Positions 8,597 to 64,000 of a stretch of 64,000 bases of DNA are shown piece after piece. The stretch is from Malacoraja senta. Lineage: Eukaryota. Position numbers and translations under genes: made by a program. Each line of letters begins with the position of its first letter. Position 1 is the first letter of the stretch. The stretch spans positions 186,001 to 250,000 of the forward strand of contig CM075991.1 of NCBI GenBank assembly GCA_038087875.1, given 5' to 3'. The notes under the pieces were generated by a model. It was not told where the DNA came from and did no database searches. It saw only the letters and a list, made by a program, of their open reading frames with translations.

Positions 8597-8609
8597 TAGT
8601 ATAGATAGA

Positions 8610-9538: not shown

Positions 9539-9635
9539 ACCTCTACAATAGTGATCTCTGAAATACCCCCGGTGCCACGTGCTAGTCGGGGTAGGAACAG
9601 TCAAATCAGACAGGTGAATTGAGAACCAGACGAAA

Positions 9636-9869
9636 TAGGTTTAACGTGTAGGGGAAAAGATTTAATAGGAATATGATGGGTAACTTTTTCACACAAAGTT
9701 GTGGTGGGTATATGGAACAATAATAATAAATAGTTAGAGAGGTACATGGATAGGCCAGGTTTGGAGGGATATGGATCAAACACGAGCCGTTGGGACTAGT
9801 GGAGCTTGCACACGTTGGCGGGTGTGGGCCGAAGTGTCTGTTTGTTCACTGTATCACTCTATGACTATT
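9636..9869 (+). mobile_element. Decayed CR1 3' end
   Basis: GGTAACTTTTTCACACAAAG...TGGAAC and GGGCCGAAG...CTGTATCACTCTATGAC. Confidence 0.7.
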
Positions 9870-9900
9870 ATTCCTGCAGCCTAACTTTCTATAGCATCCT

Positions 9901-11556: not shown

Positions 11557-11738
11557 GATCACTGCTCATCCAAACCCATCATAGACCACACTGATAACGT
11601 GACTGTTTATCCAGACACACCACTGACCACACTGATGTCACTGCCTATCCAGATACAATTCCTGCTCACAATGATATATTGTTGCTGATTCAGACATAAC
11701 GTTGACCACACAAATAACTTCACAGCTTATGCAGATTA
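11557..11738. repeat. Degenerate ~40-bp tandem repeat, 4-5 copies
   Basis: Recurring GACCACACTGAT...ACTG..TATCCAGA. Confidence 0.6.

Positions 11739-11739
<1 letters not shown>

Positions 11740-11795
<56 letters not shown>
11740..11795 (+). repeat. (TCTA)14 tract at the head of the Helitron array
   Basis: 56-bp perfect tract directly followed by TATACTTTTAAAACTCTC. Confidence 0.97.
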
Positions 11796-11796
<1 letters not shown>

Positions 11797-12167
11797 ATAC
11801 TTTTAAAACTCTCTGGCTGTCGTCCGTCTGTACGTCTGTACATCTGTACGTCTGTACGGCTGTACGTCCAACGTTCTGCTTCACCTGTGCCGCCTTTGAT
11901 ACCGACCCGCGCCCGCGCAGCGCGCGGAAACGCCGATATTTTTTACCGTTTCTAAAGAGGTTACGTTTATCTTTACGAATAGACGATCCTGATTAAATTT
12001 GGTCGTGTTTACGTACGCTTTTTTAAATAAAATACCTCTCCCCCCCCCAAACCAAACATTTCAAAATGTTTAAAAAAAACAGTTCAGCCGTAGAATGTTA
12101 GTAAAGATTCCGTTGTGTGATGTCACAATGCACAATGGTCACAGATGTCCAATCGGAATGGATCCGT

Positions 12168-24100: not shown

Positions 24101-27100
24101 AAAAGAAGAAAATTAAAATATTAATATAATATCAAGGGGTGTGATGAGTGTGTGTGTTTGTGGGTGCCAGATTCACACCCCGCAACCCTGCTTTGGAGGT
24201 ACAGACCCAACGGTTGGTTAGTTTGACGTCACAGCCCCCCGCCCCAAACGCACGTTCGGTGTCCAGACCCAACGGGTCTGGACTTGGTCTGCCTGACTTG
24301 TGTCTGCCATCCGCCTGACGTGTCACAAATCCCCTTTGATACCGCTCTAGGCCCACACAGCACGCGGAAACGCCAATATTTTTTAACGTTTCTAAAGAGA
24401 TTACGTTTATCTTTACGAATAGACAATCCTGATTAAATTTGGTTGTGTTTATGTACACTTTTTTAAATAAAATACCTCTCCCCCCCCCAAACCAAACATT
24501 TCAAAATGTTAAAAAAACAGCTCAGCCATAGAATGTTAGTAAAGATTCCGTTGTGTGATGTCACAATGCACAATGCTCACAGATGTCCAATCGGAATGAA
24601 TCCGTTTACATATGCCTTTGCAGCAGCCACAGCCCCAGCCCCTCCCCCCCCCCAACCCCGCAGCCTGTGTCGAAGGGCGTCGTCACGTTTGTGGCAATAG
24701 AGAAAGAGGATTGGGTGTGATAGGGAATGGGAAACAGATGGACTGTCCCTACCCCTCCTACTTCAACTCTCCCTCCCCACTCTTCCCCCTCTATCCTCTC
24801 CCCCTCCCTCCCCTCCCACCCCCTCTCTTCCCCCTCCACCACCCCTCTTCATCCCCATCTCCTCCCCACCCCCTTCACCTCTCTCTTGCACCACTGCCCG
24901 CTACCCCTCTGCCCCTCACTCCCCACTGTTCCCCTCTCCCTCCCCCACCTCTCTCCCTCCCCCTCCCTCTCTCCATCTCTTCCCCCTACTCCTCTCCCCT
25001 TCCCCTCATCCCCTCACCCCTCTCCCCCCTTCCTGCCCTCCCCGCTCTCCTCCCACTCCAAACTCTCCTCCCCCTCCCTCTCACCCACCCTGATCTCCTC
25101 TCCCTCCCCAATCTCTCCCCTTTCCTCTTCCCCCTCTCCCCTCCCACCCCTCTCCTCTTCACTCCCCACCCCGTCTCCCTCTCCCCTCTTCTCTCCCCAC
25201 CCTGTCTTCCTCTCCCCCCCCTCCCCCCTCCCCCCGAGTGTGTTCGGGGGTGGTTAGTGTGAGTTTGGGGGTGGTTAGTGTGAGTGGGATGCCGCAGCCC
25301 CCCCCCCCCCTCCCGCAAACGCGCGTTGGGAAAACAGCCCGCCAACAGTCTCTCTGTCTTTAAGACGGAACTGCAGATGCTGGAAAATCGAATGTACACA
25401 AAAAAAACTGTATATCATCAGCGGGTTCAGCAGCATCTATGGATCAAAGAAAATATATTACGTTTCGGTAGAAAACCATTCTGAGGATGGGCTTCGACCC
25501 AAAGCGTTGCCTATTTCCTTCGCTCCATAGATGCTGCTGCACCCGCTGTGTTTCTCCAGCTTTTTTTTGTGTACCAGTCTGTCTCTCTCTCTCTCTGCCC
25601 TTCTCTCTTCACAGCCCGCGGCTCAACTCATGCACGCCCGTTCCAACCCCCCCCCCCTTCACCTCTCTCCACATCCTCTCTTTCCTCTCTCCACCCCTCT
25701 CCTCTCTCCCCCTTCCTCTCCACCTTCCTTCCCCCTCTCCTCTTCTCTCCCCACCCCGTCTTCCTCTCCCCTGTTCTCTCCCCACCCCGTCTTCCTCTCC
25801 ACCCCTCACCCCATCCCCCCGAGTGTGTTTGGGGGTGGTTAGCGTGAGTTTGGGGGGTGGTTAGTGTGAGTGTGATGCCGCAGCCCACCCCCCCTCCCGC
25901 AAACGCGCGTTGGGAAAACAGCCCGCCAACAGTCTCTCTGTCTTTAAGACGGAACTACAGATGCTGGAAAATCGAAGGTACACAAAAAAAACCTGTATAT
26001 CATCAGCGGGTGCAGCAGCATCTATGGATCGAAGTAAATAGGCAACGTTTTGGTAGAAAACCAGTCTGAGAATGGGCTTCGGCCCAAAGCGTTGCCTATT
26101 TCCTTCGCTCAATAGATGCTGCTGCACCCGCTGTGTTTCTCAAGCTTTATTTTGTGTACCAGTCTCTCTGTCTCTCCCATCTCTCTCTCTCTCTCTCTCT
26201 GCCCTTCTCTCTTCACAGCCCGCGACTCGACTCATGCACGCCCGCTCCAACCCCCCCCTTCACCTCTCTCCCCATCCTCTCTTTCCTCTCTCCACCCCTC
26301 TCCTCTCTCCCCCTTCCTCTCGACCATACTCCTCCCCCTCTTCAAATTTTTTTTTTTCTAACATTAAATTTTCCCTCTGCCCCAACACCTCTAGACGCAT
26401 CTGAGAGGTGAGGGCTATTCGTCAGTGGATAGGGTGGAGATGGGATAAAAGAAGCAAATTAAAAAAATAAAATAATATCAAGGGCTGTGTGTTTGTGGGT
26501 GCCGGATTACGTGCTTTGGAGGAAAGGGGGTGATTAGTGTGACGCCACAGCCTTCCCCCCCCCACCCCCCCCCACAAACGCACGTTCGGTGTCCAGACCC
26601 AACGGGTCTGCACTTGGTCTAGTATACTTTTAAAACTCTCTGGCTGTCGTCCGTCTGTACGTCTGTACGTCCGTACGCCTGCCTTTGATACCGCCCCTGG
26701 CCCACACGGCGCGTGGAAAGGCCCATATTTTTTACCATTTCCAAACAGATTACATTTATCTTTACGAATAGCCACTCCTGATTAAATTCGGTCCTGTTTA
26801 TGTATATGTTTTAAAAATAAAATCCACCCCCCCCCCCCCACCCCTATGTGATTTTCTCCGATTGTCTCCGATTTTCTCCGAAAACGACGCCATCTTTTTT
26901 TCTCCGATTTCTCTGAAAACGACGCCATCTTTTTTTCGCCGATTTTGTCTGATTTTTTCCGACCACGACGCCATCTTTTTTTCCGCAGATTTTCACCCCG
27001 GGGTCTGAAGCACGTTCGGAACAACACCCCGGGGTGTCAAGCACTTTCGGGACCAGACCCAACGGGTCTGCACTTGGTCTAGTATACTTATAAAACTCTG

Positions 27101-40217: not shown

Positions 40218-40863
40218 GGATAAATGGGAAAGTCGGCTATAGGCTGTGGGCCGAGGTTCGTGACCCAACTTACGGAACTACATGATATTTCCACATATTG
40301 TGTAAAACATATTATATAAATCATCCTTGAAACTCGTCAAGAACAAAACTTGCAATTTTTTATTAAATTAGAGAAAAAACAGAAAATGGTCGGGTATTTT
40401 TAGTCCAATCAAAGCACGTTTAACATCACGCGCTTTGTTTAAGGCTAGCTAGGCAGGGAGCAAACATCATGGCTGAGAGTGCTTCTACTGATGCCTGTTT
40501 TACTGGAGATTCCGATGGAGGTTCTTTGTTTCTCTGTGGAAAACATGTCGTGGAAACTTGCAGCATGGTAATTGAATTTAGTGAGAAAAGCATTAAGAAG
40601 TCTGAAGAATGTGCAGCTTAGTGGATAGAAGGAACAAAGCCTTGAAGGCAAAGTTGCTGCTGAGGGTGCTGCAACACAAAGAGGACAGCCAAGTCGTGAA
40701 CCAGTCAAATTTGCGAACCAACTGGAACTGAAAGGTAAGATCCAAAGTCTGAATTTATGAAAAATTAATCTGTATGGACTTTAATTAATTTAATTGCATC
40801 CTTTTATAATGTGAAAAATGAGATTTGCATGCTGTACATTCACTCATTCATTCATTCATGTGA

Positions 40864-43549
40864 TTGGAAACTAAATATTCCAGGATTTCGTTGCTTCAGG
40901 GTGGTAGTATTGGAGGGGCAAGAGGTGGGGGTGTTGCATTGCTTGTCAAGGAAGATATTACAGCAGTGCTTTGGCAGGATAGATTAGAGGGCTCGTCTAG
41001 GGATGGTATTTGGGTGGAACTGAGAAATGGGAAAGGTGTAGCAACACTTATAGGGGTGTATTACAGACCGCCAAATGGGGAGCGAGAATTGGAAGAGCAA
41101 ATATGTAAGGAGATAGCAGATATTAGTAGGAAGCACAAGGTAGTGATTGTGGGAGATTTCAATTTTCCACACATAGACTGGGAAACACATTCTGTAAAAG
41201 GGCTGGATGGTTTGGAGTTTGTAAAATGTGTGCAGGAGAGTTTTTTGCAGCAATACATAGAGGTACCTACTAGAGAAGGGGCAGGGCTGGACCTCCTGTT
41301 AGGAAATGAGACAGGGCAGGTGGCAGAGGTATGCGTTGGGGAGCACTTCGGGTCGAGTGATCACAATACCATTAGTTTCAATATAATTATGGAGACGGTC
41401 AGAACTGGACCTAGGGTTGAGATTTTTGATTGGAGAAAGGCTAACTTTGAGCAGATGCGAAAGGATTTAAAAGGAGTGAATTGGGACATGTTGTTTTATG
41501 GGAAGGATGTAGAAGAGAAATGGAGGACATTTAAAGGTGAAATTTTAAGAGTACAGAATCTTTATGTCCCTGTTCGGTTGAAAGGAAATAGTAAAAATTG
41601 GAAAGAGCCATGGTTTTCAAGGGAAATTGGACACTTGGTTCAGAAAATGAGAGAGATCTACAATAATTATAGGCAGCATGGAGTAAATGAGGTCCTTGAG
41701 GAGAATAAAGAATGTAAAAAGAATATTAAGGAAGAAATTAGAAAAGTGAAAAGAAGATATGAGGTTGCTTTGGCAAGTAAGGTGAAAGAAATTCCAAAGG
41801 GTTTCTGCAGCTGTATTAATAGCAAAAGGATAACAAGGAATAAAATTGGTCCATTAGAGAGTGAGAGTGGACAGCTATCTGCAGAGCCAAAAGAGATGGG
41901 GGAGATATTGAACAATTTCTTTTCTTCGGTATTCACCAAGGAGAAGGATATGGAATTAGGTGAGGTAAGGGAAACAAGCAGAGTAGCAATGGAAACTATG
42001 AGATTCAAAGAAGAGGGGGTGCGGACACTTTTGAAAAATATGAAAACGGATAAGTCTCCAGGTCCTGACAGGATATTCCCTAGGACATTGAGGGAAGGTA
42101 GTGTAGAAATAGCAGGGGCTATGACAGAAATATTTCAAATGTCATTAGAAACGGGAACAGTGCCGGAGGATTGGCGTACTGCGCATGTTGTTCCGTTGTT
42201 TAAAAAGGGTTCTAAGAGTAAACCTAGCAATTATAGACCTGTTAGTTTGACGTCAGTGGTGGGCAAATTAATGGAAAGGATACTTAGAGATAATATATAT
42301 AAGCATCTGGATAAGCAGGGTCTGATTAGGAACAGTCAACATGGATTTCTGCCTGGAAGGTCATGTTTGACTAATCTTCTTGAATTTTTCGAAGAGGTTA
42401 CTAGGGAAATTGATGAGGGTAAAGCAGTGGATGTTGTCTATATGGATTTCAGTAAGGCCTTTGACAAGGTTCCTCATGGAAGGTTGGTTAAGAAGATTAA
42501 ATCGTTGGGTATTAATGGTGGAGTAGCAAGATGGATTCAACAGTGGCTGAATGGAAGATGCCAGAGAGTAATGGTGGATGGCTGTTTGTCAGGTTGGAGG
42601 CCGGTGACTAGTGGGGTGCCTCAGGGATCTGTGTTGGGTCCACTGTTGTTTGTCATGTACATCAATGATCTGGATGATGGTGTGGAAAATTGGATTAGTA
42701 TGCAGATGATACTAAGATAGGTGGTGTTGTGGATAATGAAGTAGATTTTCAAAGTCTACAGTGAGATTTAGGCCATTTGGAAGAGTGGGCTGAAAGATGG
42801 CAGATGGAGTTTAAAGCTGATAAATGTGAGGTGCTACATCTCGGCAGGACAAATCAAAATAGGACGTACACGGTAAATGGTAGCGAATTGAGGAATGCAG
42901 TTGAACAGAAGGATCTAGGAATAACTGTGCATAGTTCCCTGAAGGTGGAATCTCATGTAGATAGGGTGGTAAAGAAAGCTTTTGGTGTGCTGGCCTTTAT
43001 AAATCAGAGCATTGAACATAGAAGTTGGGATGTAATGTTAAAATTGTACAAGGCATTGGTGAGGCCAATTCTGGAGTATGGAGTACAATTTTGGTGGTCT
43101 AATTATAGGAAGGATGTCAATAAAATAGAGAGAGTACAGAGGAGATTTACTATAATGTTGCCTGGGTTTCAGCAACTAAGTTACAGAGACAGGTTGAACA
43201 AGTTAGGTCTTTATTCTTTGGAGCACAGAAGGTTAAGGGGGGACTTGATAGAGATCTTTAAAATGATGAGCGGGTTAGACGGAGTTGACGTGGATAAGCT
43301 TTTCCCATTGAGAGTAGGGAAGATTCAAACAAAGAGACATACCTTGAGAATTAAGGGACAGAAGTTTAGGGGTAACATTAGGGGGAACTTCTTTACTCAG
43401 AGTGGTAGCTGTGTGGAATGAGCTTCCAGCGGAAGTGGTGGAGGTAGGTTCGATTTTATCCATTAAAAATAGATTGGATGGGTATATGGACGGGAAAGGA
43501 ATGGAGGGCCGAGATGGCCTGTTTCCATGCTGTAATGGTTATATGGTTA
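40864..43549 (+). mobile_element. CR1 family A, 5'-truncated ORF2
   Basis: 618-aa and 214-aa APE/RT ORFs near-identical to 1037-3930. 3' UTR internally deleted at an AGGG microhomology. ATGGTTAT tail. Confidence 0.95.
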
Positions 43550-46445
43550 ATTCCCTCTTCCAAATCATTAATATATATATATGGTAACACATCCACTGGT
43601 TCTCCCTTATCCACTCTATCAGTTACATCCTCGAAAAATTATATAAGATTCGTCAAACATGATTTACCTTTCATAACTCCATGCTGACTTTGTCCAATGA
43701 TTTCACCACTTTCCAAATGTGCTGCTAACCCATCTTTAATAACTGACTCCAGAATTTTCCCCACCACCGATGTTAGACTAACTGGTCTGTAATTCCTCGT
43801 TTTCTCTCTCCCTCCCTTTTTAAAAAGTGGGGTTACATTAGCTACCCTCCAATCCTTAGGAACTACTTCAGAATCTAAAGAGTTTTGAAAAATTATCATT
43901 AATGCATCCACTATTTCTGGGGCTACTTCCTTAAGTATTCTGGGATGCAGCCTATCTTGCCCTGGGGATTTATCGACCTTTAATCCATTCAATTTACCTA
44001 ACACCACTTCCCGAATAACCTGGATTTCACTCAGTTCCTCCATCTCAGTTGACCCCCGGTCCCCTGCTATTTCCGGCAGATTACTTATGTCTTCCGTAGT
44101 GAAGACAGAACCAAAGTAGTTATTCAATTGGTCTGCCATGTCCCTGTTCCCCATGATGAATTCACCTGTTTGATGACTGCAAGGGACCTATATTTATTTT
44201 AACTAATCTTTTTCTCTTCACATATCTATTAACACTTTTGCAGTCAGTTTTTATGTTCCCTGCCAGTTATCTTTCATAATCTTTTTTCCCTTTCCTAACT
44301 AAGCCCTTTGCCCTTTGTCCTGCTCTGCTGGACTGAATTTCTCCCAGTCCACTGGTAGGCTGCTTTTTCTGGCTAATTTGTATGCTTCATCTTTTGTTTT
44401 GATACTATCCCTGATTTCCCTTGTTATCCACAGATGCACTACCTTCCCTACATAACCATATAACCATATGACAATTACAGCACGGAAACAGGCCATCTCG
44501 GCCCTTCTAGACCGTGCCGAACACTTACTCGCACCTAGTCCCATCTACCTGCACTCAGACCATAACCCTCCATTCCTTTCCCGTCTATATACCTATCCAA
44601 TTTATTTTTGAATGATCAAATCGAACCTGCCTCCACCACTTCCACTGGAAGCTCATTCCACACAGCTACCACTCTCTGAATAAAGAAGTTCCCCCTCATG
44701 TTACTCCTAAACATCTTTCCCTTAATTCTGAAATCATGTCCTCTTATTTGAATCTTTCCTACTCTCAACGGAAAAAGCTTATCCACGTCAACTCTGTCTA
44801 TCCCTCTCATAATTTTAAAGACCTCTATCAAGTCCCCCCTTAACTTTCTGAGCTCCAAAGAATAAAGACCTAACTTGTTCAACCTTTCTCTGTAACTTAG
44901 GTGCTGAAACCCAGGCAACATTCAAGTAAATCTCCTCTGTACTCTCTCTCTCTTGTTGACATCTTTCCTATAATTTGGCGATCAAAATTGTACACCATAC
45001 TCCAGAATTGGCCTCACAAATGCCCTGTACAATTTTAACATTACATCCCAACTTCTATACTCAATGCTCTGATTTATAAAGGTCAGCACACCAAAAGCTT
45101 TCTTTACCACCCTATCTACATGAGATTCCACCTTCAGGGAACTATGCACAGTTATTCCTAGATCCCTCTGTTCAACTACATTCCTCAATTCGCTACCATT
45201 TACCGTGTACGTCCTATTTTGATTTGTCCTGCCAAAATGTAGCACCTCAACCCTGGTTTATTATTTTGCCAAACTGGGATGCACAATAGTTGTAATTCAT
45301 CCATGCAGTCTTTAAATGCATTCCATTGCATATCCACCGTCAACCATTTAAGAATCAATTGCCAGTCTATCTTGGCCAATTCACCTCTCATACCCACAAA
45401 GTTACCTTTCTTTAAGTTCAGAACCCTTGTTTCTGAATTAACTATGTCACTCTCCATCCTAATGAAGAACTCAACCATATTATGGTCACTCTTGCCCAAG
45501 GGGCCACGCACAACAAGACTGCTAACTAACCCTTCCTCATTACTCAATACCGAGTCTAGAATAGCCTGCTCTCTCGTTGGTTCCTCTACATATTGGTTTA
45601 GAAAACTATCCCGCACACATTCCAAGAAATCCTCTTCCTCAGCTCCCCTGCCAATTTGATTCACCCAATCTATATGTAAATTGACGTCACCCATTATAAC
45701 TATTTTACCTTTGTTACATGCATTTCTAATTTGCTGTTTGATGCCATCCCCAACTCCACTACTACTGTTAGGTGGCCTGTACACAACTCCCACTAGCGTT
45801 TTCTACCCCTTAGTGTTTCGCACCTCTACCCATATCGATTCCACATCCTCCAAGCTAATGTCCTTCCTTTCTATTGCGTTAATCTCCTCTCTAACCAGCA
45901 ACGCTACCCCACCTCCTTTTCCTTTCTGTCTATCCCTCCTGAATATTGAATATCTCTGGATGTTCAGCTCCCAGTCTTGGTCACCCTGGAGCCATGTCTG
46001 CGTGATCCCAACCATATCATATTCATTAATAACTATCTGCACATTCAACTCATCCACCTTATTACGAATGCTCCTTGCATTGAGACCCAAAGCCTTCAGG
46101 TTTGTTTTTACAACACTCTTACCCCTTATACTATTATGTTGAAAAGTGTCCCTTTTTGATTTTTGCCCTGGATTTGTCTGGCTGCCACTTTTACTTTTCA
46201 CCTTGCTACCTATTGCTTATACCATCATTTAACGCCCCTCTGTCTCTCTGCTCATGCTCCCATCCCCCTGCCACATTAGTTTAAACCCTCCCCGACAGCA
46301 CTAGCAAACACACCCCCAAGGACATTGGTTCCATTCCAGCCCAGGTGCAGACCGTCCTGTTTGTACAGGTCCCACCTCCCCCAGAACTGGTTCCAATGTC
46401 CTAGAATTTGAATCCCTCCCCCTTGCACTATTTTTCAAGCCACGT
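43550..46445 (-). mobile_element. CR1 family B (end of ORF1, APE, part of RT), truncated and interrupted
   Basis: Minus-strand ORFs at 45803-46201, 45200-45793 and 43639-44154. ORF1 DGLHL region near 46340. Confidence 0.9.
44450..45249 (-). mobile_element. CR1 A-like 3' fragment nested in the CR1-B copy
   Basis: ORFs 44982-45245 and 44616-44921. Tail seen as ATAACCAT repeats at 44452-44468. CCCT on both flanks. Confidence 0.88.
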
Positions 46446-46684: not shown

Positions 46685-48568
46685 GGTGAAAGTAAATCCA
46701 AAGGGTTTCTACAGCTATATTAATAGCAAAAGGATAACAAGGAATAAAATTGGTCCATTAGAGAGTCACAGTGGACAGCTATCTGCAGAGCCAAAAGAGG
46801 GGGGAGATATTGAACAATTTATTTTCTTCGGTATTCACCAAGGAGAAGGATATGGAATTAGGTGAGGTAAGGGAAACAAGCAGAGTAGCAATGGAAACTA
46901 TGAGATTCAAAGAAGAGGAGGTGCGGACACTTTTGAAAAATATGAAAACGGATAAGTCTCCAGGTCCTGACGGGATATTCCCGAGGACATTGAGGGAAGT
47001 TAGTGTAGAAATAGCAGGGGCTATGACAGAAATATTTCAAATGTCATTAGAAACGGGAATAGTGCCGGAGGATTGGCGTACTGCGCATGTTGTTCCGTTG
47101 TTTAAAAAGGGTTCTAAGAGTAAACCTAGCAATTATAGACCTGTTAGTTTGATGTCAGTGGTGGGCAAATTAATGGAAAGGATACTTAAAGCTAATATAT
47201 ATAAGCATCTGGATAAGCAGGGTTTGATTAGGAACAGTCAACATGGATTTGTGCCTGGAAGGTCATGTTTGAGTAATCTTCTAGAATTTTTCGAAGAGGT
47301 TACTAGGGAAATTGATGAGGGTAAAGCAGTGGATGTTGTCTATATGGACTTCAGTAAGGCCTTTGACAAGGTTCCTCATGGAAGGTTGGTTAAGAAGATT
47401 AAATTGTTGGGTATTAATGGTGGAGTAGCAAGATGGACTCAACAGTGGCTGAATGGGAGATGCCAGAGAGTAATGGTGGATGGCTGTTTGTCAGGTTGGA
47501 GGCCGGAGACTAGTGGGGTGCCTCAGGGGTCCGTGTTGGGTCCACTGTTGTTTGTCATGTACATCAATGATCTGGATGATGGTGTGGACAATTGGATTAG
47601 TAAGTATGCAGATGATACTAAGATAGGTGGTGTGGTGGATAATGAAGTAGATTTTCAAAGTCTACAGAGAGATTTAGGCCATTTGGAAGAGTGGGCTGAA
47701 AGATGGCAGATGGAGTTTAATGCTGATAAATGTGAGGTACTACATCTCGGCAGGACAAATCAAAATAGGACGTACATGGTAAACGGTAGAGAATTGAGGA
47801 ATGCAGTTGAACAGAGGGATCTAGGAATAACTGTGCATAGTTCCCTGAAGGTGGAATCTCATGTAGATAGGGTGGTAAAGAAAGCTTTTGGGGTGCTGGC
47901 CTTTATAAATCAGAGCATTGAATATAGAAGTTGGGATGTAATGTTAAAATTGTACAAGGCATTGGTGAGGCCAATTCTGGAGTATGGAGTACAATTTTGG
48001 TCGCCGAATTATAGGAAGGATGTCAACAAAATAGAGAGAGTACAGAGGAGATTTACTAGAATGTTGCCTGGGTTTCAGCAACTAAGTTACAGAGAAAGGT
48101 TGAACAAGTTAGGTCTTTATTCTTTGGAGCGCAGAAGGTTAAGAGGGGACTTGATAGAGGTCTTTAAAATTATGAGCGGGTTAGACAGAGTTGACGTGGA
48201 TAAGCTTTTTCCATTGAGAGTAGGGAAGATTCAAACAAGGGGACATGACTTGAGAATTAAGGGACAGAAGTTTAGGGGTAACATTCGGGGGAACTTCTTT
48301 ACTCAGAGAGTGGTAGCTGTGTGGAATGAGCTTCCAGTGGAAGTGGTGGAGGCTGGTTCGATTTTATCCTTTAAAAATAGATTGGATGGGTATATGGACG
48401 GGAAAGGAATGGAGGGTATGGTCTGAGTGCAGGTAGATGGGACTAGGGGGAAGTATTGAATTAAAAAAAATATATATATATTTAAATGTTCGGCACGGAC
48501 TTGAAGGGCCGAGATGGCCTGTTTCCGTGCTGTAATGGTTATATGGTTATATGGTTATATGGTTATAT
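46685..48568 (+). mobile_element. CR1 family A, 5'-truncated, with an open RT domain
   Basis: 551-aa ORF at 46771-48426 containing the RT motifs including YADD. (ATGGTTAT)n tail. Confidence 0.96.
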
Positions 48569-52205: not shown

Positions 52206-55165
52206 GTGGTAATAACGGCAGGGGTAGAGGAAATAGAGCAGGGTATCAGTGGGGAAACGGAAAATCAAAATGTGACAGGAGGATCCAGAATGTGTGAAGA
52301 TAAAGCTCTAGATGTAAAAGAGGCAAAAACAGAAAGGAAGGGTAGTAAAAATCATCTGAAAGTGCTGTATCTAAATGCACGGAGTATTCGAAATAAGATA
52401 AATGAATTAACGGTGCAATTAAGTATATATAGTTATGATATCGTGGCCATTACGGAGACATGGCTGCAAGGGGATCAGGACTGGGAGTTAAATATAGAGG
52501 GGTACTCGACAATTAGAAAAGATAGACAGGAAAGAAAGGGAGGAGGGGTGGCCCTTTTAATAAGGGAGGGAATAACGGCAATAGAGAGGAAGGATATTGC
52601 GTTGAAGGATCAGGATAGTGAAACAGCTTGGGTACAGATAGAGAATAACAAGGGGAAAAAAACACTAGTGGGTGTAATTTATAGACCTCCAAATAGCTGT
52701 GACGCTGTTAGTCAGAACATAAATCTGCAAATAGTTGACGCATGTAAAAAGGGAACTGCTGTAATCATGGGGGACTTCAATTTTCATATTAATTGGGCAA
52801 ACCAAACTGGGCAGGGTAGACTAGAGGAAGAGTTTATAGAATGTATTAGAGACGGGTTCCTAGAACAGTATGTCACAGAACAGACAAGGGGGGAGGCAAT
52901 CTTGGATCTGGTCCTGTGTAATGAAGCAGGATTAATTAAAAATGTCATAGTTAGGGACTCGTTGGGAACAAGTGACCACAATATGGTCGAATTCCATATT
53001 CAAATAGAAGGGGAGCAGGTTGAAACTCAGGCTATGGTACTTAGTCTAAATAAGGGGGATTATGAAGGTATGAGGACTGAGCTGATCAAAGTTGACTGGG
53101 ATAGCAGACTCAAGAATAAGACGGTACATGAGCAGTGGTGTACGTTTAAGGATCTACTGTATAACCTTCAAGAAAAATTTATTCCTATGAAGAAAAAAAG
53201 GGGTAAGGGTAAGAACAGTCAGCCATGGCTTAGTAAAACTATAAAGGATAGTATTCGGCTGAAGGCAAGGGCATATAAGGTAGCCAGAGATAGTGGGAGG
53301 GTAGAGGATTGGGAAGCATTTAAAGGTCAGCAAAAAATAACTAAGAGATTAATTAAGACGGGGAAAATAGACTATGAAAGGAATTTAGCGAACAACATAA
53401 AAACTAATAGTAAGAGTTTTTATAGCTATATAAAAAGAAAAAGGGTGGCTAAGGTGAACGTTGGTCCATTGGAGGGTGAGACTGGAGAGTTGTTGGTGGA
53501 GAACATGGAAATGGCAAAGGCATTAAACGAGTATTTTGTATCAGTCTTCACCATAGAAGACACAAAAAATATTCCAACGCTGGATAAACAGGGGGCGGTA
53601 GGAATGGAAGAGCTAAATAATATTAAGATCACCAAGGAGGTGGTATTAGGGAAATTAATGAGACTAAAGGAGGATAAATCCCCTGGGCCTGATGGATTAC
53701 ATCCAAGGGTCTTGAGGGAGATAGCGGTGGGGATTGTGGATGCATTGGTGATAATTTTCCAAAACTCCCTGGAGGCAGGAACGGTCCCAGTGGATTGGAA
53801 AATGGCCAATGTAACACCTATATTTAAAAAAGGAAGTAAACAGAAGGCGGGTAACTATAGACCGGTTAGTCTAACATCGGTGGGGGGAAAATGTTAGAGA
53901 CAATTATTAAAGAAACACTAACGGGGCACTTGGATGGACATGACTTCATCGGACAGAACCAGCATGGTTTTGTGAAGGGGAAGTCCTGTTTAACGAATCT
54001 GCTCGAATTCTTTGAGGAAGTAACAACCCGGGTGGATAAAGGGGAACCGGTGGATGTGGTATACTTGGACTTCCAAAAGGCTTTTGACAAGGTGCCACAT
54101 AAGAGACTATTGCTAAAAATAAAAAAATATGGGATTGGGGGTAATATATTAGCATGGGTAGAGGATTGGCTAACAAATAGGAAGCAGAGAGTGGGGATAA
54201 ATGGTTCATATTCGGGATGGCAACCGGTAACTAGCGGGGTTCCGCAAGGGTCGGTGCTGGGACCCCAGTTGTTTACAATTTATATAAATGATTTGGAGGA
54301 GGGAACCAAGTGTAATATATCAAAATTTGCGGACGATACAAAAATGGGAAGAAAAGTAGGGGATGAGGAGGATAGGAAGAGTCTGCAAAAGGATATAGAT
54401 AAGCTAGGTGAGTGGGCAACAACTTGGCAGATGAAATTTAATACTAATAAATGTGAAGTCATTCACTTTGGGGAAAAAAATGATAGGGCAAGTTATTTTC
54501 TAAATGAGGAGGAGCTGCGTTGTAATGCAACGCAAAGGGATCTAGGGGTAGTAGTACATGAATCACTAAAAGTTAGTATGCAGGTACAGCAAGCTATCAG
54601 GAAGGCCAATGGAGTTTTGGCCTTTATTGCTAGGGGGATTGAGTATAAAAACACGGAGGTCTTGCTGCAGCTGTACACAGTATTAGTGAGACCACATTTG
54701 GAATACTGTGTACAGTTCTGGGGTCCATACTTAAGAAAGGATGTACTGGCCCTGGAGGCAGTGCAGCGAAGGTTTACAAGATTAATTCCTGCAATGAGGG
54801 GATTGACATATGAGGAAAGGTTAAGTAGGCTGGAACTCTACTCTTTGGAGTTTAGAAGAATGAGAGGCGATCTCATTGAAACATATAAGATCGTGAGGGG
54901 CCTTGATCGGGTGGATGCACCGAGGATGTTCCCAATGATCGGGGAAACTAGAACTAGGGGACATAGTTGCAGAATAAGGGGGGGCTCTTTTAAAACTGAG
55001 ATGAGGAAGAACTTCTTCACCCAGAGGGTGGTTAATTTATGGAATTCACTGCCCCAGGGAGCAGTGGAAGCAGAAACATTAAATATATTTAAGTCTAAAA
55101 TAGATGGTTTTTTAGCTGCCAAGGGGATAAGGGGCTACGGGGAGAGGGCAGGGATATGGACCTAG
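52206..55165 (+). pseudogene. CR1 ORF2 APE-RT with a single -1 frameshift near 53885
   Basis: 563-aa and 424-aa ORFs. GGTGGGGGGAAAATG here versus GGTGGTGGGTAAAATG in the sister copy near 13535. Confidence 0.93.
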
Positions 55166-55504
55166 GTAGGGTTAGTATAGTAAGACCTGAGTGATCTCCT
55201 GGACAAGTGTCGATCGCCTGGATTGGGGTCGGAGAGGAATTTCCCGGATTTTTTTCCCGAATTGGACCTGGGTTTTTATCCGTTTTTTTGCCTCCCCCAG
55301 GAGATCACGCGGTTCTTGGGGTGGAGAGGGGTGATAGCGGTATAAAGGGGAGGGTAGCGTCTTGTGTTCTGTGTCTTGTGTCTACTGTTTGTGGGTAGGG
55401 GTGTCTGTTTGGTGTTCAGCCATGAGCGAATGGCGGTGCGGGCTCGATGGACCTGGTGGTCTACTCTCGCACCTACTTTCTATGTTTCTATGTTTCTCAT
55501 ACAC

Positions 55505-55628
55505 ACATAGATACATAGATACATAGAAATGGATGATCAGCCATGATCATATTGAATGGCGGTGCAGGCTCGAAGGGCCGAATGGCCTACTCCTGCACCT
55601 ACTTTCTATGTATCTATGTATCTATGTA
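55505..55628 (+). mobile_element. Minimal CR1 3' stub flanked by inverted copies of its tail
   Basis: 55505-55529 is the exact reverse complement of 55603-55627. Confidence 0.85.
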
Positions 55629-57762
<2,134 letters not shown>

Positions 57763-57769
57763 ATCCGGG

Positions 57770-58198
57770 ACATACGACAGTGAAACTCTCGATTCTACTC
57801 ACGTCCGACTTTTGAACTCAGGTCCGATTTCTGGACTGAGCGCGACTTCCGGAATGAACGCGACTTCCGGAATGAGCGCGACCTCTGGACTGAGCGCGAC
57901 TTCCGGACTCACACACACACACACCCTCCGGGGTTGTATTCTCCTCGCCCCCAGAAAGGGCATTACCATCATGGTGAGATAGGCGATAAGACCAATCTGG
58001 TGTTCCCTCAATTTTTAAACCTACATTAATTTTCTATTATTTCACCGACCGGAATAAAACTTGGTGCGCTTGGAGCAGAGGAGAACGGTTAGTAACATGG
58101 CGAAAAGAATCATAGCGATGTAGGGTACCGTTTTTGCGCAAGTTTAATTACAACACAGACCGGATGTCTCAAGATGAGAGTTTTAGTGATAGTATAGA
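57770..58198 (-). mobile_element. Helitron 5' fragment (minus strand) with an 18-bp tandem repeat
   Basis: A|TCTATACTATCACTAAAACTCTC terminus, homologous to 6920-7190. GCGCGACTTCCGGACTGA-like units at 57830-57910. Confidence 0.75.
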
Positions 58199-58402
58199 TT
58201 TCAAAACATTAACAGCTTTTCAATGGGAGACTCTTGCAGCACTTTCCATTGATGATGTCACAGTGTCGTCTCACAGACGTCCAATCACAATGGATCTCAT
58301 TTACATATGACATCACAATGGGAGAGGGGTGGGAGATTGCAACCTTCACGTGTTTCCACGAATGCAAACAACCTGACGTGCACAATCAAATAAGATCAAA
58401 TA

Positions 58403-58954
58403 TGTGAGAAAAGAGTTAACAGACATGGTTGATTTAGACTAGGGATAGAAAAATGGCTTGGGGTGTCAGCAGAAGCCAGACTGCTGGTAGAATAGAAAAT
58501 AACGATATATAGAACAGAGAGAAATTCTAGATAAAAAGTAGCAAATTCAGCAGATTTGAAAAGTAAGTAAAAGGGAGAAAGTACATAAGGTCAAACATAT
58601 CTGCGCATGCCTAATGAACTTATATGAATATGTACACACACCCACTATGACAAGATGTCTCATTTAAATGTACATGCGATGTATGATCTGGGAGGTACCC
58701 TGGGTGTTGCGTGGCGTTACGGGGCGTTACGGTTAGATTGTGCACCTCAGTGCTCTGATTGGAAGGAGCCTGAAGGGGAGGAATTAAAGGTGTAAACTAT
58801 TGTAAAATGGTGTGAATAAAAGAGGGTGACTTTCCTGGTCTCGGTGTGTCTCAACAGGGGAGGCACCCGACTCTGCAGACCTGCTAATAAATAAACTTGT
58901 TTCTCTAAATTCTCTAGTATCGTGATTGTGTCAAACAGTTTTTTGCACCTCACA
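58403..58954 (+). repeat. 5' LTR (552 bp)
   Basis: TGTGAG...CTCACA termini. AATAAA motifs near 58817 and 58887. Confidence 0.97.
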
Positions 58955-58957
58955 GAA

Positions 58958-58975
58958 GGGGGCTCGTCTCGGGAT
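58958..58975 (+). promoter_or_regulatory. Degenerate tRNA-Pro primer binding site
   Basis: GGGGGCTCGTCTCGGGAT versus canonical TGGGGGCTCGTCCGGGAT, 3 nt after the LTR. Confidence 0.85.
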
Positions 58976-59306
58976 TGCCACTCCGGCCAGCTGGCGACGG
59001 TATATGGGAGAAGGGACGGTGTACCCCGCTGATTTAGCGGCCCCTAGACCCCTTGCTTGCCGTCAGCGGTTTGGGCGAGTGATATCCAAGACCAGAGATT
59101 AGAGAAACAAGTGGGAGTAGTTGGAAATCGCGAGGAGACAAATCGAGCAATTCTTGTGCACAGGATCCGGGTAAGGAAATGACTATTAAGTATTTCTCGG
59201 GCGATTGGGATAAGACCTTGTGGATACCGCCCTGAAGAATTCAGGGGTCTGTACGGGCAAGGCAGGAAAATAGATCGAGGGGAAATTCCGATCGAATGCT
59301 TGGGCA

Positions 59307-59450
59307 ATGGAAATGGAAAGCCCAAAAGGGAGGGGAAGGGCGTTAAGCCCGACCCTCCGCATTCTGCCTGATAGTCCGTTGGGGCGAATGCTGAGCCTCT
59401 GGGGGCAGAGAAATACCCAGGGAATTGGAGAAGACAAAAATGATTTGATT
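59307..59450 (+). pseudogene. gag: Gag matrix N-terminal remnant
   Basis: Translates to ...ILPDSPLGRMLSLWG, a class I ERV matrix-type motif. Confidence 0.7.
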
Positions 59451-60139
59451 CTGTTATTTTGAGTTTTAATATGTAAAAGATGTTGCATTTATTTGAAGTA
59501 AGAATGGAACGAATGTGATTTGTGTGTAAAAACCGGTTTGGAATGAAAGAGGAAGTTTATATATGTGATAATTATTTTGTTTAGTGTATTTGTAGACCAC
59601 ATTGTAAGAGTAAGTAAGTTTTATTAGAATCAAAAATGTTCACTGTAGGTAGGTGTATGTTCCTTTAAATAAATTAGGTCATGGTGAAAGGCGACGGACA
59701 GCTGTAAGATAACGATTAATTGTTTGTATCCTCGTAACCTAGAAGGGATGTTCTTTTAGATTTCTAGTCAGTAAAGATAATTTGGAAAATTGTTACTAGT
59801 GCTAGGAATTAGACATTTAAAATAGTAGTGAATATGGATTGAAATAATTGGAAATAAGTTAATTGGTAAACATTCAAGTTTAGAAAGAAAGGAGAGAGAG
59901 GCAGTTAGAAGATAACAGAAGTAGAAAAACGACAGGCGTGAAAGTAATAAAGCAGGAGGAGTCAGTGGAAGATTTAAAAAAGAAAGGTGAATGAATTTGC
60001 AAGAAGGCTAGAATATTTGAGAAGCAAGAAATTGAATTTAGAATAAGAAAGAAGGCATACCAGAAAGGATTAAAGTTGGAAGCATTGGGATAAAGAGATG
60101 AGACAGCTTTAAAGAGAAAAGAGAAGGACAGACACGGAT

Positions 60140-60720
60140 TATCCCTTGGGGCACCCATAAACTGAAAGGGCTAAAAAAAATACCTCACCCTATATCCCTG
60201 ATGGGGGAGGAAATGGATTAGGGCTTTGGAGGAGGAGAACGTGGGACGATTATTGATCATGGAAGATTTGAAGGCTCTGTTGGTAAAAGTGATAGGAACC
60301 ACTAAAGTGACAGAACTACTGAAGATGGATGGTATAAACTGATGTGAACAATGTAACAAGCAATGGCATACTGTTTGACACAGTCAGGCAGAGGGTATGG
60401 CAGGCCCTCAGACAATGTAATCCAGCAGCCTATCTGGAAAACCAGCTGAAAAGGTGGAGAGTTGATTGATGAACATTATATTATGAACAGGCAGATGGTA
60501 TGGCAGGCCCTCAGACAATGTAATCCAGCAGCCTATCTGGAAAACCAGCTGAAAAGGTGGAGAGTTGATTGATGAACATTATATTATGAACTACTGTGGT
60601 GGATGTCATTCTTCTTAAAGTCAAGCAGATTCAGTAAACAGTTGGTCTCTGCAGTCGAGAAATATCGCAAAGATAGGAAAAAGACTTGCAAACCAGCAGG
60701 AGGAGCTGTTGTCAATAAAC
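60140..60720 (+). pseudogene. gag: Second Gag-like remnant
   Basis: KWIRALEEENVGRLLIMEDLKALLVKVIG resembles fish ERV Gag (from recall). Heavily frameshifted. Confidence 0.5.
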
Positions 60721-61039
60721 AATGGACCTAAGTGAGTCCTATGATGGAACCAAGCAGGGCCAGAGAATTACATGCCAATAATGAATGTCTTTGGGGAACG
60801 TTTCCTCAAAAAGTCCTATCAGGAGTGAAATTAATCTGGATATAAGCCCTAACAGGACTGGGGTCCCCAACAGAGAAAAAGATTTAAAGGAGGATATGTT
60901 GGTATTGTTCCATAAGTGACAAGCGATGTAAGAGAGAGAGATAGAAAAAAAAAACAATAATACTTCAGAATGTAGGACAGAGGATGATAACCTTGGGAAA
61001 AGACAGGATATAGTTCAGACTAGATTAGGTATAAGCCCT

Positions 61040-61575
61040 GTAGTGTCGTTTATGATGAATAAGGTAATTAAGAGGTTTGGTAGACCTACAGAAATCAGCT
61101 TTGACAAAGGATTGTTTTCATTTAGGGAATAGCCAAGTTGGTGATAGAGACCCTTAGAGTAAAATACACATTTGGGTATGTAACACCTGCAGTCACAGGC
61201 ATGGTGGAAAGAATAAATGGAACATTGAAGGTTAATATAAATAAGATTTGTTTAATTACAAAGTTGAATTGGATCGATGCCCTGCCATTGGCACTGAAGA
61301 GATGTTGCATGCAAACTAACCGAGCAGGTGGCACAATGGAGAGGTCCCTACAAGAGACCGAGTTTGGAACAGTTAAAGATAGAATTTAAAAAGTATATGA
61401 AACAGTTAATTATGATATACAAGTCTATTGATGAACAGGAAAAGTAAAAGCTGTTGGAGGTGGACCAGGAGCAAGGACCCTTTAAACCTGAAGACAAGGT
61501 GTATGTATGAGTTTTCTAAACTACCGACCGATGTTCAGGTAGAAGGTTGATATACCTGGTACCATTTCAATAATG
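61040..61575 (+). pseudogene. pol: Integrase core/C-terminal remnant 1
   Basis: GMVERINGTLK...KIC..TKLNWIDALPLAL, containing the catalytic E region. Confidence 0.85.
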
Positions 61576-61674
61576 ACATGAGGGCTGTCCCGCAGGTACG
61601 AATAGATAATAGCCCTGAGGTAAGTGAACAGGAGGACAAAGATGTGAGAAAAGAGTAGAGTTTTAACAAGAACG

Positions 61675-62634
61675 TTGTTTGACATCAGTGGTGGGCAAAA
61701 TAATGGAAAGGATACTTAAGACAATATATAAGAATTTGGATAAATAGGGTAGGATTAGGAAGAATTAGCATGGATTTGTGATTGTGATGTTTGACTAATC
61801 TTGAATTTTTTGAAAAGGTTATTAGGGAAATTGATGAGGGTAAAGTGGTGGATGTTGTCTAGATGAACTTCAGTAAGGCCTTTGACAAGGTTCAATAAGG
61901 AAATAAGGTTGGTTAAGAAGGGTTAGTAAGGAATAGCAAGATGGATTAAAAAGTGGCTGTATGGGAGATGTCAGAGAGCAATGGTGGGTGGATGTTTGTC
62001 AGGTTGGAGGTCAGTGACTAGAGGGGTACCTCGGGGATGTGTGTTGGGTCCACTGTTGTTTGTCATGTGAATCAATAATCTGGATGTTGGTGTGGTAAAA
62101 TAGATTAATAAGTATGTAGATGGTACTAAGATAGGTGGTGTTGTGAATAATGAAGTAGATTTTAAAAGTGTACAGAGAGATTTAGATCATTTGGAAGAGT
62201 GGGTTGAAACATGACAGATGGGTTTAATGTTGATAAGTGTGAGATGATACATCTTAGCAAGACAAATCAAAATTGAACGTACATGGTAAATGATTGTGAA
62301 TTGAGGAATGAAGTTGAACAGGCGGATCTAGGAATAACTGTGCATAGTTCCCTGAAGGTGGAATCTCATGAAGATAGGGTGGTAAAGAAAGATTTTGGTG
62401 TGTTGGCCTTTATAAATCAGAGCATTGTGTATAGAAGTTGGATTGTAATGTTAAATTGTACAAGGTATTGGTGAGGTCAATTGTGGAGTATGGTGTATAA
62501 TTTTGGTAGGCATAATTATAGGAAAAAGGTCAACAAAATAGAGAGAGTACAGAGGAGATCAATTAGAATGTTGACTGGGTTTCAGCAACTAAGACACAGA
62601 GAAAGGTTGAACAAGTTAAGTCTTTATTATTTAG
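61675..62634 (+). mobile_element. Highly mutated CR1-A RT segment inside the ERV
   Basis: Colinear with 47145-48125, with many substitutions and stops. No CR1 tail and no TSD. Confidence 0.9.
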
Positions 62635-63026
62635 GAAAGATAGAAGGAGTCCCAACAATGCAAGGGAACGATGTGTTCCTGAGGAACTATTTACTGGCAG
62701 TGTCCCAATCTCTTGCAGAACTAAAAATTAAAGGATTGCTGGCCCAGAGCCCGCCACTGGACTTTCAGATTCACTCAGTCAAGGCTGGAGGCTGGGTATT
62801 AATAAAAACATGGAAAGAAGAAAAGCTGCAACCTAAGTGGACTGGACCCTACCTGGTGTTACTGACCACGGAAACAGCAGTGCGGACAAAAGAAAAAGGG
62901 TGGACACACGCAAGTCGAGTTAAGGGTCCTGTGGAGGCCCCACCAGACAATATCAGCCCGTGGACTGTGCGCAAAGGAGAGGAAACATTGACTTTAATAT
63001 TTACCAAGAACCCGCGGGAAAAATGA
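62635..63026 (+). pseudogene. pol: Integrase C-terminal (GPY/F) remnant 2, open frame
   Basis: WVLIKTWKEEKLQPKWTGPYLVLLTTETAVRTKEKGWTHASRVK. Confidence 0.9.
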
Positions 63027-63256
63027 AGATTTTGTGTTGGTGGGTCGTGTGTTGGGTGGTTACCCAACTCGTGAGTAATATAACATGCATAAAAATCACA
63101 ATACCACAGAATAGAAGGTCCACCACCATCCCATTTGATGTATGTAAAGGAAAATGGTGGTGCAGCTATAGAATGTATGTATGCACCCATCCCTGTAAAG
63201 ATTGGCACGCAGTGTATACTTCATCAAAATATGGGTGGCATCGAACCACCTTATAG
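63023..63256 (+). pseudogene. env: Truncated envelope N-terminus (signal peptide and start of SU)
   Basis: The ATG overlaps the pol stop (ATGA). Hydrophobic leader MKILCWWVVCWVV, then FDVC...YVC...C..W..V. Stops after 77 aa. Confidence 0.7.
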
Positions 63257-63356
63257 GTGGAAAGTATATCAAACCCCGAATGAGGGATAGGGAGGCGAAG
63301 AATCTGCTGCTAGAACTAGAAAAGGAGGATATAGTATAAATCAAAGGATGCGTAGC

Positions 63357-63375
63357 AAAAAAGAAAAGGATGGAT
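63357..63375 (+). promoter_or_regulatory. Polypurine tract
   Basis: AAAAAAGAAAAGGATGGAT immediately before the 3' LTR. Confidence 0.8.
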
Positions 63376-63925
63376 TGTGAGAAAAGAGTTAACAGACATG
63401 GTTGATTTAGACTAGGGATAGAAAATGGCTTGGGGTGTCAGCAGAAGCCAGACTGCTGGTAGAATAGAAAATAACGATATATAGAACAGAGAGACATTCT
63501 AGATAAAAAGTAGCAAATTCAGCAGAAGATTTGAAAAGTAAGTAAAAGGGAGAAAGTACATAAGGTCAAACATATCTGCGCATGCCTAATGAACTTACAT
63601 GAATATGTACACACACCCACTATGAGAAGATGTCTCATTTAAATGCACATGCGATGTATGATCTGGGAGGTACCCTGGGTGTTGCGGGGCGTTACGGGGC
63701 GTTCCGGTTAGATTGTGCACCTCAGTGCTCTGATTGGAAGGAGCCCGAAGGGGAGGAATTAAAGGTGTAAACCATTGTAAAATGGTGTGAATAAAAGAGG
63801 GTGACTTTCCTGGTCTCGGTGTGTCTCAACAGGGGAGGCACCTGACTGCAGACTCTAATAAATAAACTTGTTTCTCTAAATTCTCTAGTATCGTGATTGT
63901 GTCAAACAGTTTTTTGCACCTCACA
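63376..63925 (+). repeat. 3' LTR (550 bp)
   Basis: Matches the 5' LTR with about 9 substitutions and 4 small indels (counted by eye). Confidence 0.97.
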
Positions 63926-64000
63926 AAATAGAACAAGTTATCCTCCCCCCCCTCTCTACCCCCTCCCTATCTATCTCCCTCCCTCTCTACTCCTTCCCTA

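What the first reader, a model, noticed from the sequence alone, without database searches (positions are those of the whole stretch)
58403..63925. Non-autonomous mosaic provirus assembled from two retroviral lineages and a LINE
Seen order: LTR, PBS(Pro), matrix remnant (PDSPLG), decayed second Gag, decayed integrase 1, CR1 RT, open integrase 2 C-terminus, env start, PPT, LTR, with a clean 5-bp TSD. There are two different integrase tails and no RT or protease. The middle (59.5-62.6 kb) is ruined and C-poor, while integrase 2/env is in frame and the LTRs are ~98% identical. Inference: a parasitic, VL30-like recombinant RNA mobilised in trans that acquired fresh ends from a helper virus by template switching.
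Basis: partly seen in the sequence, partly recalled or inferred. Interest (0 to 1): 0.72.

Follow-up and report, generated by a model that had tools for sequence, protein, structure and literature searches.

The report
Skate retroviral parasite with replaced ends
A recently inserted retrovirus-like element, probably from a skate, that encodes no working enzymes: it has fresh ends from one retrovirus family, a ruined core from a second and a piece of a LINE, and its passenger DNA has lost cytosines from one strand only.

Summary
The layout is real. It has 550-nt LTRs (9 substitutions in 547 columns), a 5-bp TSD and no retroviral RT. The two integrase pieces fall in different class I clades. IN2 is 95% identical to RT-bearing little-skate Pol proteins, a candidate helper family whose lineage also fits the matrix remnant. 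IN1 and the capsid remnant match a separate fish/shark lineage. The CR1 piece is internal, with no tail or TSD.

In contigs from four differently labelled organisms, the ruined core and the CR1 piece's own indel scars are deeply covered. The R-U5/PBS/matrix cap is common in only one. So this looks like an old multi-copy non-autonomous family whose 5' end gets replaced. No displayed contig bridges the junctions, so a colinear second copy is inferred, not seen.

The architecture is of the recKoRV/ETn kind and so not new in principle. The surprise is the mutation spectrum. Against three free CR1 copies, 39 of 100 plus-strand C changed versus 24 of 271 G (C>A 14 vs G>T 0), with no codon bias. That fits neither symmetric genomic decay nor APOBEC G>A editing, and its cause is unexplained.

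The parts
58398..58402 (+). 5' target-site duplication (5 bp)
   Evidence: identical to 63926-63930
58403..58954 (+). 5' LTR, 552 nt
   Evidence: 98.4% to 3' LTR; 8 of 9 substitutions involve a plus-strand C, none is G/A
58957..58975 (+). primer-binding site resembling tRNA-Pro, imperfect
   Evidence: read from sequence; tRNA assignment recalled, not tested
58976..59299 (+). leader, normal C content; part of the 'fresh' 5' cap
   Evidence: C 11-20 per 80 nt; at >=90% identity thinly covered in X4 and X6 (47-1,710), 3,400-11,800 in X3, 14,400-15,200 in X2
59300..59455 (+). broken matrix start of the integrase-2 lineage
   Evidence: aligns to N-terminus of a bird Gag-Pol found through integrase 2 (P0028): 0 of 500 and 1 of 500 shuffles as good
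59435..60116 (+). C-poor eroded block, probably 5' gag of the second lineage; 59460-59930 unassigned
   Evidence: C 7.5%; weak match to P0063/P0104 from about 59930; high depth in 4 of 4 runs at 59514
60117..60683 (+). broken capsid of a second class I lineage, with deletions and a 103-bp tandem duplication (60385-60590)
   Evidence: 55-72% identity in best blocks to stingray and unnamed Gag proteins P0063/P0104/P0108; duplication
60944..61646 (+). integrase 1: broken core and C-terminal tail, second lineage
   Evidence: tblastn to P0049/P0052/P0059/P0070/P0112; tree
61644..61657 (+). exact copy of the first 14 nt of the LTR after a purine-rich run; possible relic of an older 3' end (uncertain)
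   Evidence: expected exact matches 0.00017, but 15 of 500 shuffles score as high in a gapped test
61677..62632 (+). captured internal piece of CR1 LINE ORF2, no 3' tail, no TSD, C-eroded
   Evidence: 87.4-87.7% to three free CR1 copies that are 96.8-97.4% alike; free copy runs 433 nt further
62633..63023 (+). integrase 2 C-terminal tail, open, helper lineage
   Evidence: MLVIN_C E 2e-10; 95% to Leucoraja Pol P0001
63023..63256 (+). putative env start, 77 codons then stop; most of env absent
   Evidence: position and hydrophobic N-terminus (inference); no Pfam or Atlas hit
63257..63375 (+). 3' remnant and polypurine tract
   Evidence: sequence
63376..63925 (+). 3' LTR, 550 nt
63926..63930 (+). 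3' target-site duplication

Best explanation
This is one recent insertion of a long-lived, multi-copy, non-autonomous endogenous retrovirus family, probably of skates. SHOWN: it integrated as one unit (TSD, near-identical LTRs) while encoding no RT or intact integrase. Its ends belong to a class I lineage that still has long open Pol ORFs in little skate. Its core comes from a different class I lineage. The CR1 piece did not arrive by ordinary LINE insertion and has changed about 11% since losing coding function, with strong plus-strand C loss. INFERRED: the RNA is packaged and copied by the helper's proteins. The core, the CR1 piece and the helper ends were joined by template switches between co-packaged RNAs. 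The 5' cap has been exchanged again in different host lineages, keeping the element compatible with the helper of the day. Unconstrained passenger DNA records a C-to-other error or damage bias of the RNA or single-stranded phase, summed over many replication rounds.
For: TSD and 98.4% LTR identity. Two integrase clades: IN1 tail vs IN2 4 of 57 identical; ML tree support 98-100. Six 882-aa Leucoraja Pol proteins on four contigs in IN2's cluster. CR1 piece lacks 3' end and TSD, and CR1 and helper-type sequence match at 8 of 10 bases around the 3' joint. The 101 element-specific CR1 changes fall 34/36/31 on codon positions; 21 are synonymous vs 23.9+-4.1 expected at random; 9 create stops. C>A 14/100 vs G>T 0/271, p 5e-9; free CR1 copies give 2/570 vs 5/1492. 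In 4 of 4 runs, depth at the CR1 piece's own indels (61896, 61920) matches the IN1 core and is far below free-CR1 depth. The R-U5/PBS bin is 18,659 in X2 but 103, 0 and 0 in X3, X4 and X6, while 59514 is 54,171, 18,005, 5,434 and 61,101. Listed helper-type contigs at the IN2 joint have depth 39-52 only.
Against: None of the 32 displayed contig pieces (of 43,356) bridges either CR1 junction by 31 nt on both sides, and the tool warns that summed contig depth is no copy number. No host genome was held, so no second full copy was read. Distant-CR1 outgroups side with the element at 23 of 80 resolved sites, on a poor alignment of 56-60% identity. C>T exceeds G>A about two- to fourfold in free CR1 copies too (p 0.011 in one family), so only the transversions are clean. 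Loss of C-requiring residues is significant against 7 of 9 IN1 relatives but only 1 of 6 Gag relatives. The PBS is imperfect. Sharing of the LTR with the helper is untested.
Confidence: 0.75

Rival explanations
1. recKoRV-type recurrent recombinant: the eroded core plus CR1 piece is an abundant family with its own older ends, and window-type caps arise repeatedly by recombination with the helper, each giving few copies rather than one expanding clone.
For: The core is covered in 4 of 4 organisms but this 5' cap is common in only 1. Several alternative leader and env-deletion joints are listed (tables 5, 5c, 7). Independent origins are argued for recKoRV1 (PMC6112702, passages).
Against: The IN2 tail is covered at about core depth in all four runs, so the 3' piece looks old and shared. 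In X2 the cap depth (14-19k) is a sizeable part of core depth (12-63k). No LTR pair of the core's own is seen here.
Confidence: 0.15
2. Genomic patchwork at one locus: a helper provirus integrated and its middle was later replaced by nested insertions, deletions or gene conversion with old, already decayed genomic DNA.
For: No displayed contig bridges the junctions. One LTR difference (58729) is polymorphic in the family, so conversion between copies may occur.
Against: The CR1 piece has no tail or TSD. Decay in double-stranded DNA should give C>A about equal to G>T, but the counts are 14/100 vs 0/271. The CR1 scars are deeply covered in four organisms. The piece carries 11% change against 1.6% between the LTRs.
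Confidence: 0.05
3. The C loss is not a replication-phase error spectrum. It is transcription-associated deamination of integrated copies (AID/APOBEC-like on the exposed sense strand, with abasic-site bypass giving C>A and C>G), or selection for C-poor RNA. This rival concerns the erosion only and is compatible with the family model.
For: C>T, C>A and C>G all occur; GpC context is enriched, 17/28 vs 22/72, p 0.007. Six of nine LTR differences have C in the 3' LTR and A or T in the 5' LTR. Fourfold-degenerate sites of free CR1 ORF2 are also C-poor, 5-11% in the frames with few stops, pointing to a host-wide pressure.
Against: The AID motif WRC is not significantly enriched: 18/36 vs 21/64, p 0.13. 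Changes are evenly spread along the piece rather than clustered. Free CR1 copies show no C>A excess after insertion.
Confidence: 0.3

Closest known systems
recKoRV (koala; KoRV x PhER recombinants; PMC6112702, PMC5696478, passages read)
   Same: 5' LTR, leader and truncated gag start plus a 3' piece and LTR from an active retrovirus, around a non-coding middle from an older ERV. TSDs, microhomology at some breakpoints, multi-copy and non-autonomous. recKoRV1 keeps PhER's 3' LTR inside, which the 14-nt relic at 61644 may echo.
   Different: recKoRV formed within about 50,000 years in one host. Here the core and CR1 scars are covered in four organisms, there is a third donor (a LINE), the helper piece starts in integrase rather than env, and the middle shows strand-specific C erosion (not mentioned in the passages read).
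Mouse ETn/MusD (PMC6466679, passages read)
   Same: Non-coding element with traces of retroviral homology, mobilised by a coding-competent partner and more numerous than it.
   Different: Betaretroviral. The ETn middle is not described there as a second retroviral lineage plus a LINE piece.
Mouse VL30 (PMC6466679, passages read)
   Same: Non-autonomous class I element co-packaged with a helper (MLV).
   Different: VL30 has its own LTRs (recalled), whereas here the ends are helper-lineage sequence.
APOBEC-edited ERVs (PMC4866542, passages read)
   Same: Strand-biased hypermutation fixed in LTR elements.
   Different: That signature is clustered G>A on the sense strand, with C>T used as the negative control. 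Here sense-strand C is lost to T, A and G, spread evenly.

Membership tests
Integrated LTR retroelement / ERV | Paired LTRs with TG...CA ends and a TSD | tested here: met
Integrated LTR retroelement / ERV | PBS after 5' LTR and PPT before 3' LTR | tested here: inconclusive
   both visible; the PBS is imperfect and its tRNA-Pro assignment is recalled
Class I (gamma/epsilon-like) ERV | Pol closest to MLV; MLV-type integrase C-terminal domain | tested here: met
   relatives of both lineages hit MLV RT best (E 7e-112 and 2e-80 vs foamy RT 1e-14 and 8e-20); MLVIN_C in IN2 and in IN1 relatives. Tested on relatives, since the element has no retroviral RT.
Lokiretrovirus (considered for the core) | Similarity to published loki Gag/Pol consensus sequences | tested here: not met
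   two motifs typical of the core's relatives have 0 hits in the supplement (file cut when stored); relative P0112 has an MLV-like RT
recKoRV-type recombinant | Both ends from one active retrovirus lineage | tested here: met
   matrix and IN2 both match the same lineage; LTR origin itself not testable
recKoRV-type recombinant | Middle from a different, older, non-coding retroelement | tested here: met
recKoRV-type recombinant | Same junctions at several loci | tested here: inconclusive
   depth at the scars is high in 4 of 4 runs, but no displayed contig bridges a junction
recKoRV-type recombinant | LTR identical to that of the helper provirus | not testable with these tools
   no host genome held; helper known only as proteins
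Non-autonomous ERV (ETn/VL30 type) | No coding capacity for RT or intact integrase | tested here: met
Non-autonomous ERV (ETn/VL30 type) | RNA packaged and mobilised in trans | not testable with these tools
   inferred from TSD and LTR identity; no laid run was RNA
Nested CR1 insertion (TPRT) | CR1 3' end with microsatellite tail and flanking TSD | tested here: not met
   piece stops 433 nt before the free copy's end; no shared 5-mer at the two joints
APOBEC3-type edited ERV | Sense-strand G>A far above C>T | tested here: not met
   G>A 23/271 vs C>T 20/100

The most novel reading that the evidence does not exclude
A retroviral parasite lineage older than several skate species has survived by serially re-capping itself with the ends of whichever helper ERV is active. 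Its layered passenger DNA records an undescribed germ-line process that removes plus-strand cytosines (to T, A and G) from retroelements during replication. That process would act on the opposite strand to APOBEC3 editing and could also explain the C-poor CR1 LINEs of these genomes.
Probability: 0.3. Interest if true: 0.8.

Novelty: new variant of a known kind. Interest (0 to 1): 0.55.

Why it matters
recKoRV shows how such recombinants are born. This element suggests they can persist across host speciation and change ends, which makes it a natural test of how defective retroviral RNAs track their helpers. A neutral LINE piece with close free relatives in the same genome gives a polarised, selection-free readout of the mutation spectrum of retroelement replication in a cartilaginous fish. 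That spectrum (sense-strand C to T, A and G) does not fit the standard APOBEC signature, and it is directly testable on existing skate assemblies. It also warns that LTR-LTR divergence here (8 of 9 differences involve C) may not be a plain clock.

Tried and rejected
No host genome was held, so copies could not be counted directly. No RNA holder was listed with certainty; this says nothing on expression. A PDB sequence search with the integrase-1 core gave only chance hits. Word-index protein searches with the IN1 tail and with the matrix remnant found nothing; both were placed instead with proteins from other searches. The metagenome scan with IN2 gave one distant locus, 50% over 35 residues. 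Exact look-up of four element ORFs: none on record. ESM Atlas gave no usable hit for the env start. Rejected: lokiretrovirus origin of the core; simple integrase duplication; nested CR1 insertion or nested ERV with its own LTRs; CR1-lineage evolution as the source of the differences, since there is no synonymous excess; CpG decay, since the asymmetry holds without CpG sites, 18/95 vs 21/263, p 0.006; AID WRC targeting, not significant. A continuation of the matrix beyond 59455 was suspected by eye but not supported by shuffles. The internal LTR-start relic is left as uncertain. Earlier scan findings: four look-ups returned nothing.
Full report
Observation. The element spans 58403-63925. The LTRs (552 and 550 nt) begin TG, end CA, differ at 9 of 547 aligned columns and are flanked by an identical 5-mer. 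Pfam on all three plus-strand frames, stops read as X, finds an MLV-type integrase C-terminal domain near the 3' end, an RT hit inside the CR1 piece and one sub-threshold DUF hit. Full Pol relatives align only to the two integrase pieces. C content drops sharply at about 59435 and recovers at about 62635. The 'open' 3' part is only a 132-codon integrase tail plus a 77-codon ORF that I take for the env start from position and hydrophobicity; no tool confirmed it.

Two lineages. IN2 is 95% identical to an 882-aa Leucoraja erinacea Pol with RT, RNase H and integrase. Its cluster has 16 members; the 15 listed include six 882-aa proteins on four contigs. The window is therefore probably from a skate (inference) and a helper-type family exists. 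Bird Gag-Pol proteins found through IN2 carry the same matrix motif, and P0028 aligns to 59328-59455 better than 500 of 500 and 499 of 500 shuffles. A HMMER search with one frame of the middle gave 50 proteins at E<=0.001. These place a capsid at 60117-60683 (stingray P0063/P0108) and an integrase at 60944-61646 (bamboo shark P0049, teleost P0052, P0070, P0112). With 37 reference integrases and three element pieces as separate rows, the IN1 pieces are 29-73% identical to their own group and 9-38% to the IN2 group. IN2 is 48-96% to its own group and 7-21% to the other, and the overlapping tails share 4 of 57 residues. The ML tree separates the clades with support 98-100. Relatives of both lineages have MLV-like RT, and the core is not a lokiretrovirus.

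The CR1 piece. 61677-62632 is 87.4-87.7% identical to three free CR1 copies in the window that are 96.8-97.4% alike. It is internal: a free copy runs 433 nt further to its microsatellite tail, and no 5-mer is shared at the two joints. A helper-type loose end in run X3 shows pol continuing upstream of 62631; CR1 and this helper sequence match at 8 of 10 bases around the joint. This fits a template switch but does not prove one. An exact copy of the LTR's first 14 nt sits at 61644, where IN1 homology ends. The exact-match expectation is 0.00017, but 15 of 500 shuffles reach the same gapped score, so I leave it as a possible relic of an older 3' end.

Mutation spectrum. At 908 columns where the three free copies agree, the element differs at 101. 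C changed at 39 of 100 sites and G at 24 of 271. C>T is 20 vs G>A 23, C>A 14 vs G>T 0 (p 5e-9), and C>G 5 vs G>C 1; changes are spread evenly. They fall 34/36/31 on codon positions, with 21 synonymous against 23.9+-4.1 expected at random and 9 new stops, so they arose after coding was lost. Distant outgroups side with the free copies at 57 sites, with the element at 23, and 21 are unresolved, on a poor alignment. Private mutations of free CR1 copies give C>A 2/570 vs G>T 5/1492 in one family and 0/212 vs 8/410 in another. C>T is mildly above G>A in them too (p 0.14 and 0.067 in two overlapping sets of one family, 0.011 in the other), so the transversions are the clean signal. The asymmetry survives removal of CpG sites; GpC is enriched (17/28 vs 22/72) and WRC is not. 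IN1 has lost more C-requiring residues than it gained against 9 of 9 relatives (7 with p<0.05, not independent) while G-requiring residues are balanced; for Gag only 1 of 6 is significant. Eight of nine LTR differences involve a plus-strand C and none is G/A, though one site is polymorphic in the family. The known APOBEC signature is G>A on the sense strand (PMC4866542, passages), the opposite of this.

Other copies. No host genome was held. Twenty runs of seven coded organisms hold part of the internal region; I laid four, one each from organisms A-D, at 90% likeness. The tool warns that summed contig depth is no copy number, so I use it only as a pattern. Single contigs in the ruined core reach depths of 904, 2,478, 767 and 698, against 9-52 for the shallowest listed contigs. 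At the CR1 piece's own indels, where free CR1 drops out, depth is 52,973/33,684/2,666/10,679 (61896) and 40,777/24,494/1,961/16,622 (61920). That is like the IN1 bins (23-58k, 11-41k, 0.8-2.9k, 17-38k) and far below the CR1 bins (134k-1.6M). The IN2 bins are of similar size to the core, while the two listed helper-type contigs at the joint have depth 52 and 39. In contrast the R-U5/PBS bin is 18,659/103/0/0 and the fresh matrix site 59343 is 16,430/325/21/0, but 59514, just inside the eroded zone, is 54,171/18,005/5,434/61,101. A junk core that is better shared among species than the cis-acting cap is most simply explained by cap replacement (inference). Against this reading: none of the 32 displayed pieces (of 43,356) bridges a CR1 junction by 31 nt on both sides.

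Mechanism. Shown: integration as one unit without its own enzymes; three sequence donors; post-capture, strand-asymmetric erosion. Inferred: packaging and copying by the helper; assembly by template switching; repeated 5' re-capping; accumulation of about 11% change over many replication rounds, against 1.6% between the LTRs. For the erosion I favour an error or damage bias at template C in the RNA or single-stranded phase. Deamination of transcribed integrated copies, or selection for C-poor RNA, remain open (about 0.3). Fourfold sites of free CR1 are also C-poor (5-11% in the frames with few stops), which hints at a host-wide pressure.

Comparison. recKoRV has the same plan: helper 5' LTR, leader and gag start, an older non-coding ERV middle, helper 3' end, with TSDs and microhomologies (PMC6112702 and PMC5696478, passages). 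ETn/MusD and VL30 are the non-autonomous precedents (PMC6466679, passages). For PMC7947760 I read passages, section 5 and searched its one supplement, which was cut when stored. For bioRxiv 10.64898/2026.05.06.723177 I read passages; its supplements, which list skate Env candidates, were not seen and may include the helper. Nine literature searches (listings only, apart from the papers named) showed no description of this skate family or of sense-strand C erosion in an ERV. The library lacks most subscription journals, and Repbase and Dfam could not be searched.

Verdict. It is a new variant of a known kind: the layout has precedent, while the apparent cross-species persistence with cap exchange and the polarised C-loss spectrum lift it above routine. 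Interest 0.55.

Noticed in passing
window 1295-4044, 40859-43508, 44452-45249, 46685-48558: Young CR1 subfamily (90-97% alike) whose sense strand is itself C-poor (11%; 5-9% C at fourfold sites), ending in an 8-bp microsatellite tail; source of the captured piece.
   Followed up: partly
window 12168-15153 and 52513-55497: Two 3-kb copies of another CR1 family, 98.8% identical: very recent insertions or a local duplication.
   Followed up: no
window 15175-27046: C-rich complex repeat array with a 4.85-kb duplication (17269-22091 vs 22251-27046, 96%).
   Followed up: no
window 55600-57915: CA/CT-rich satellite of 20-24-nt units followed by an 18-bp tandem repeat, just upstream of the insertion site.
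   Followed up: no
window 57925-58400: The provirus sits in or beside a high-copy repeat (75% match to 6927-7191; very high depth in all four runs).
   Followed up: no
P0120, P0121, P0124 (cluster of P0001): Helper-family Pol proteins from Logan contigs leave the integrase core at the same residue and end in the same short tail, as if spliced or sharing a deletion.
   Followed up: no
P0069, P0082: Short Logan ORFs that look like differently decayed copies of the same Gag core (65-82% identity in frame; P0082 seen on 6 contigs).
   Followed up: partly
tables 5 and 5c: Variant joints in other runs: 60085 to 61197 and 61254 to 61415 deletions (X2), and 62904 joined to an LTR-like start (X6), suggesting several deletion subfamilies.
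   Followed up: no
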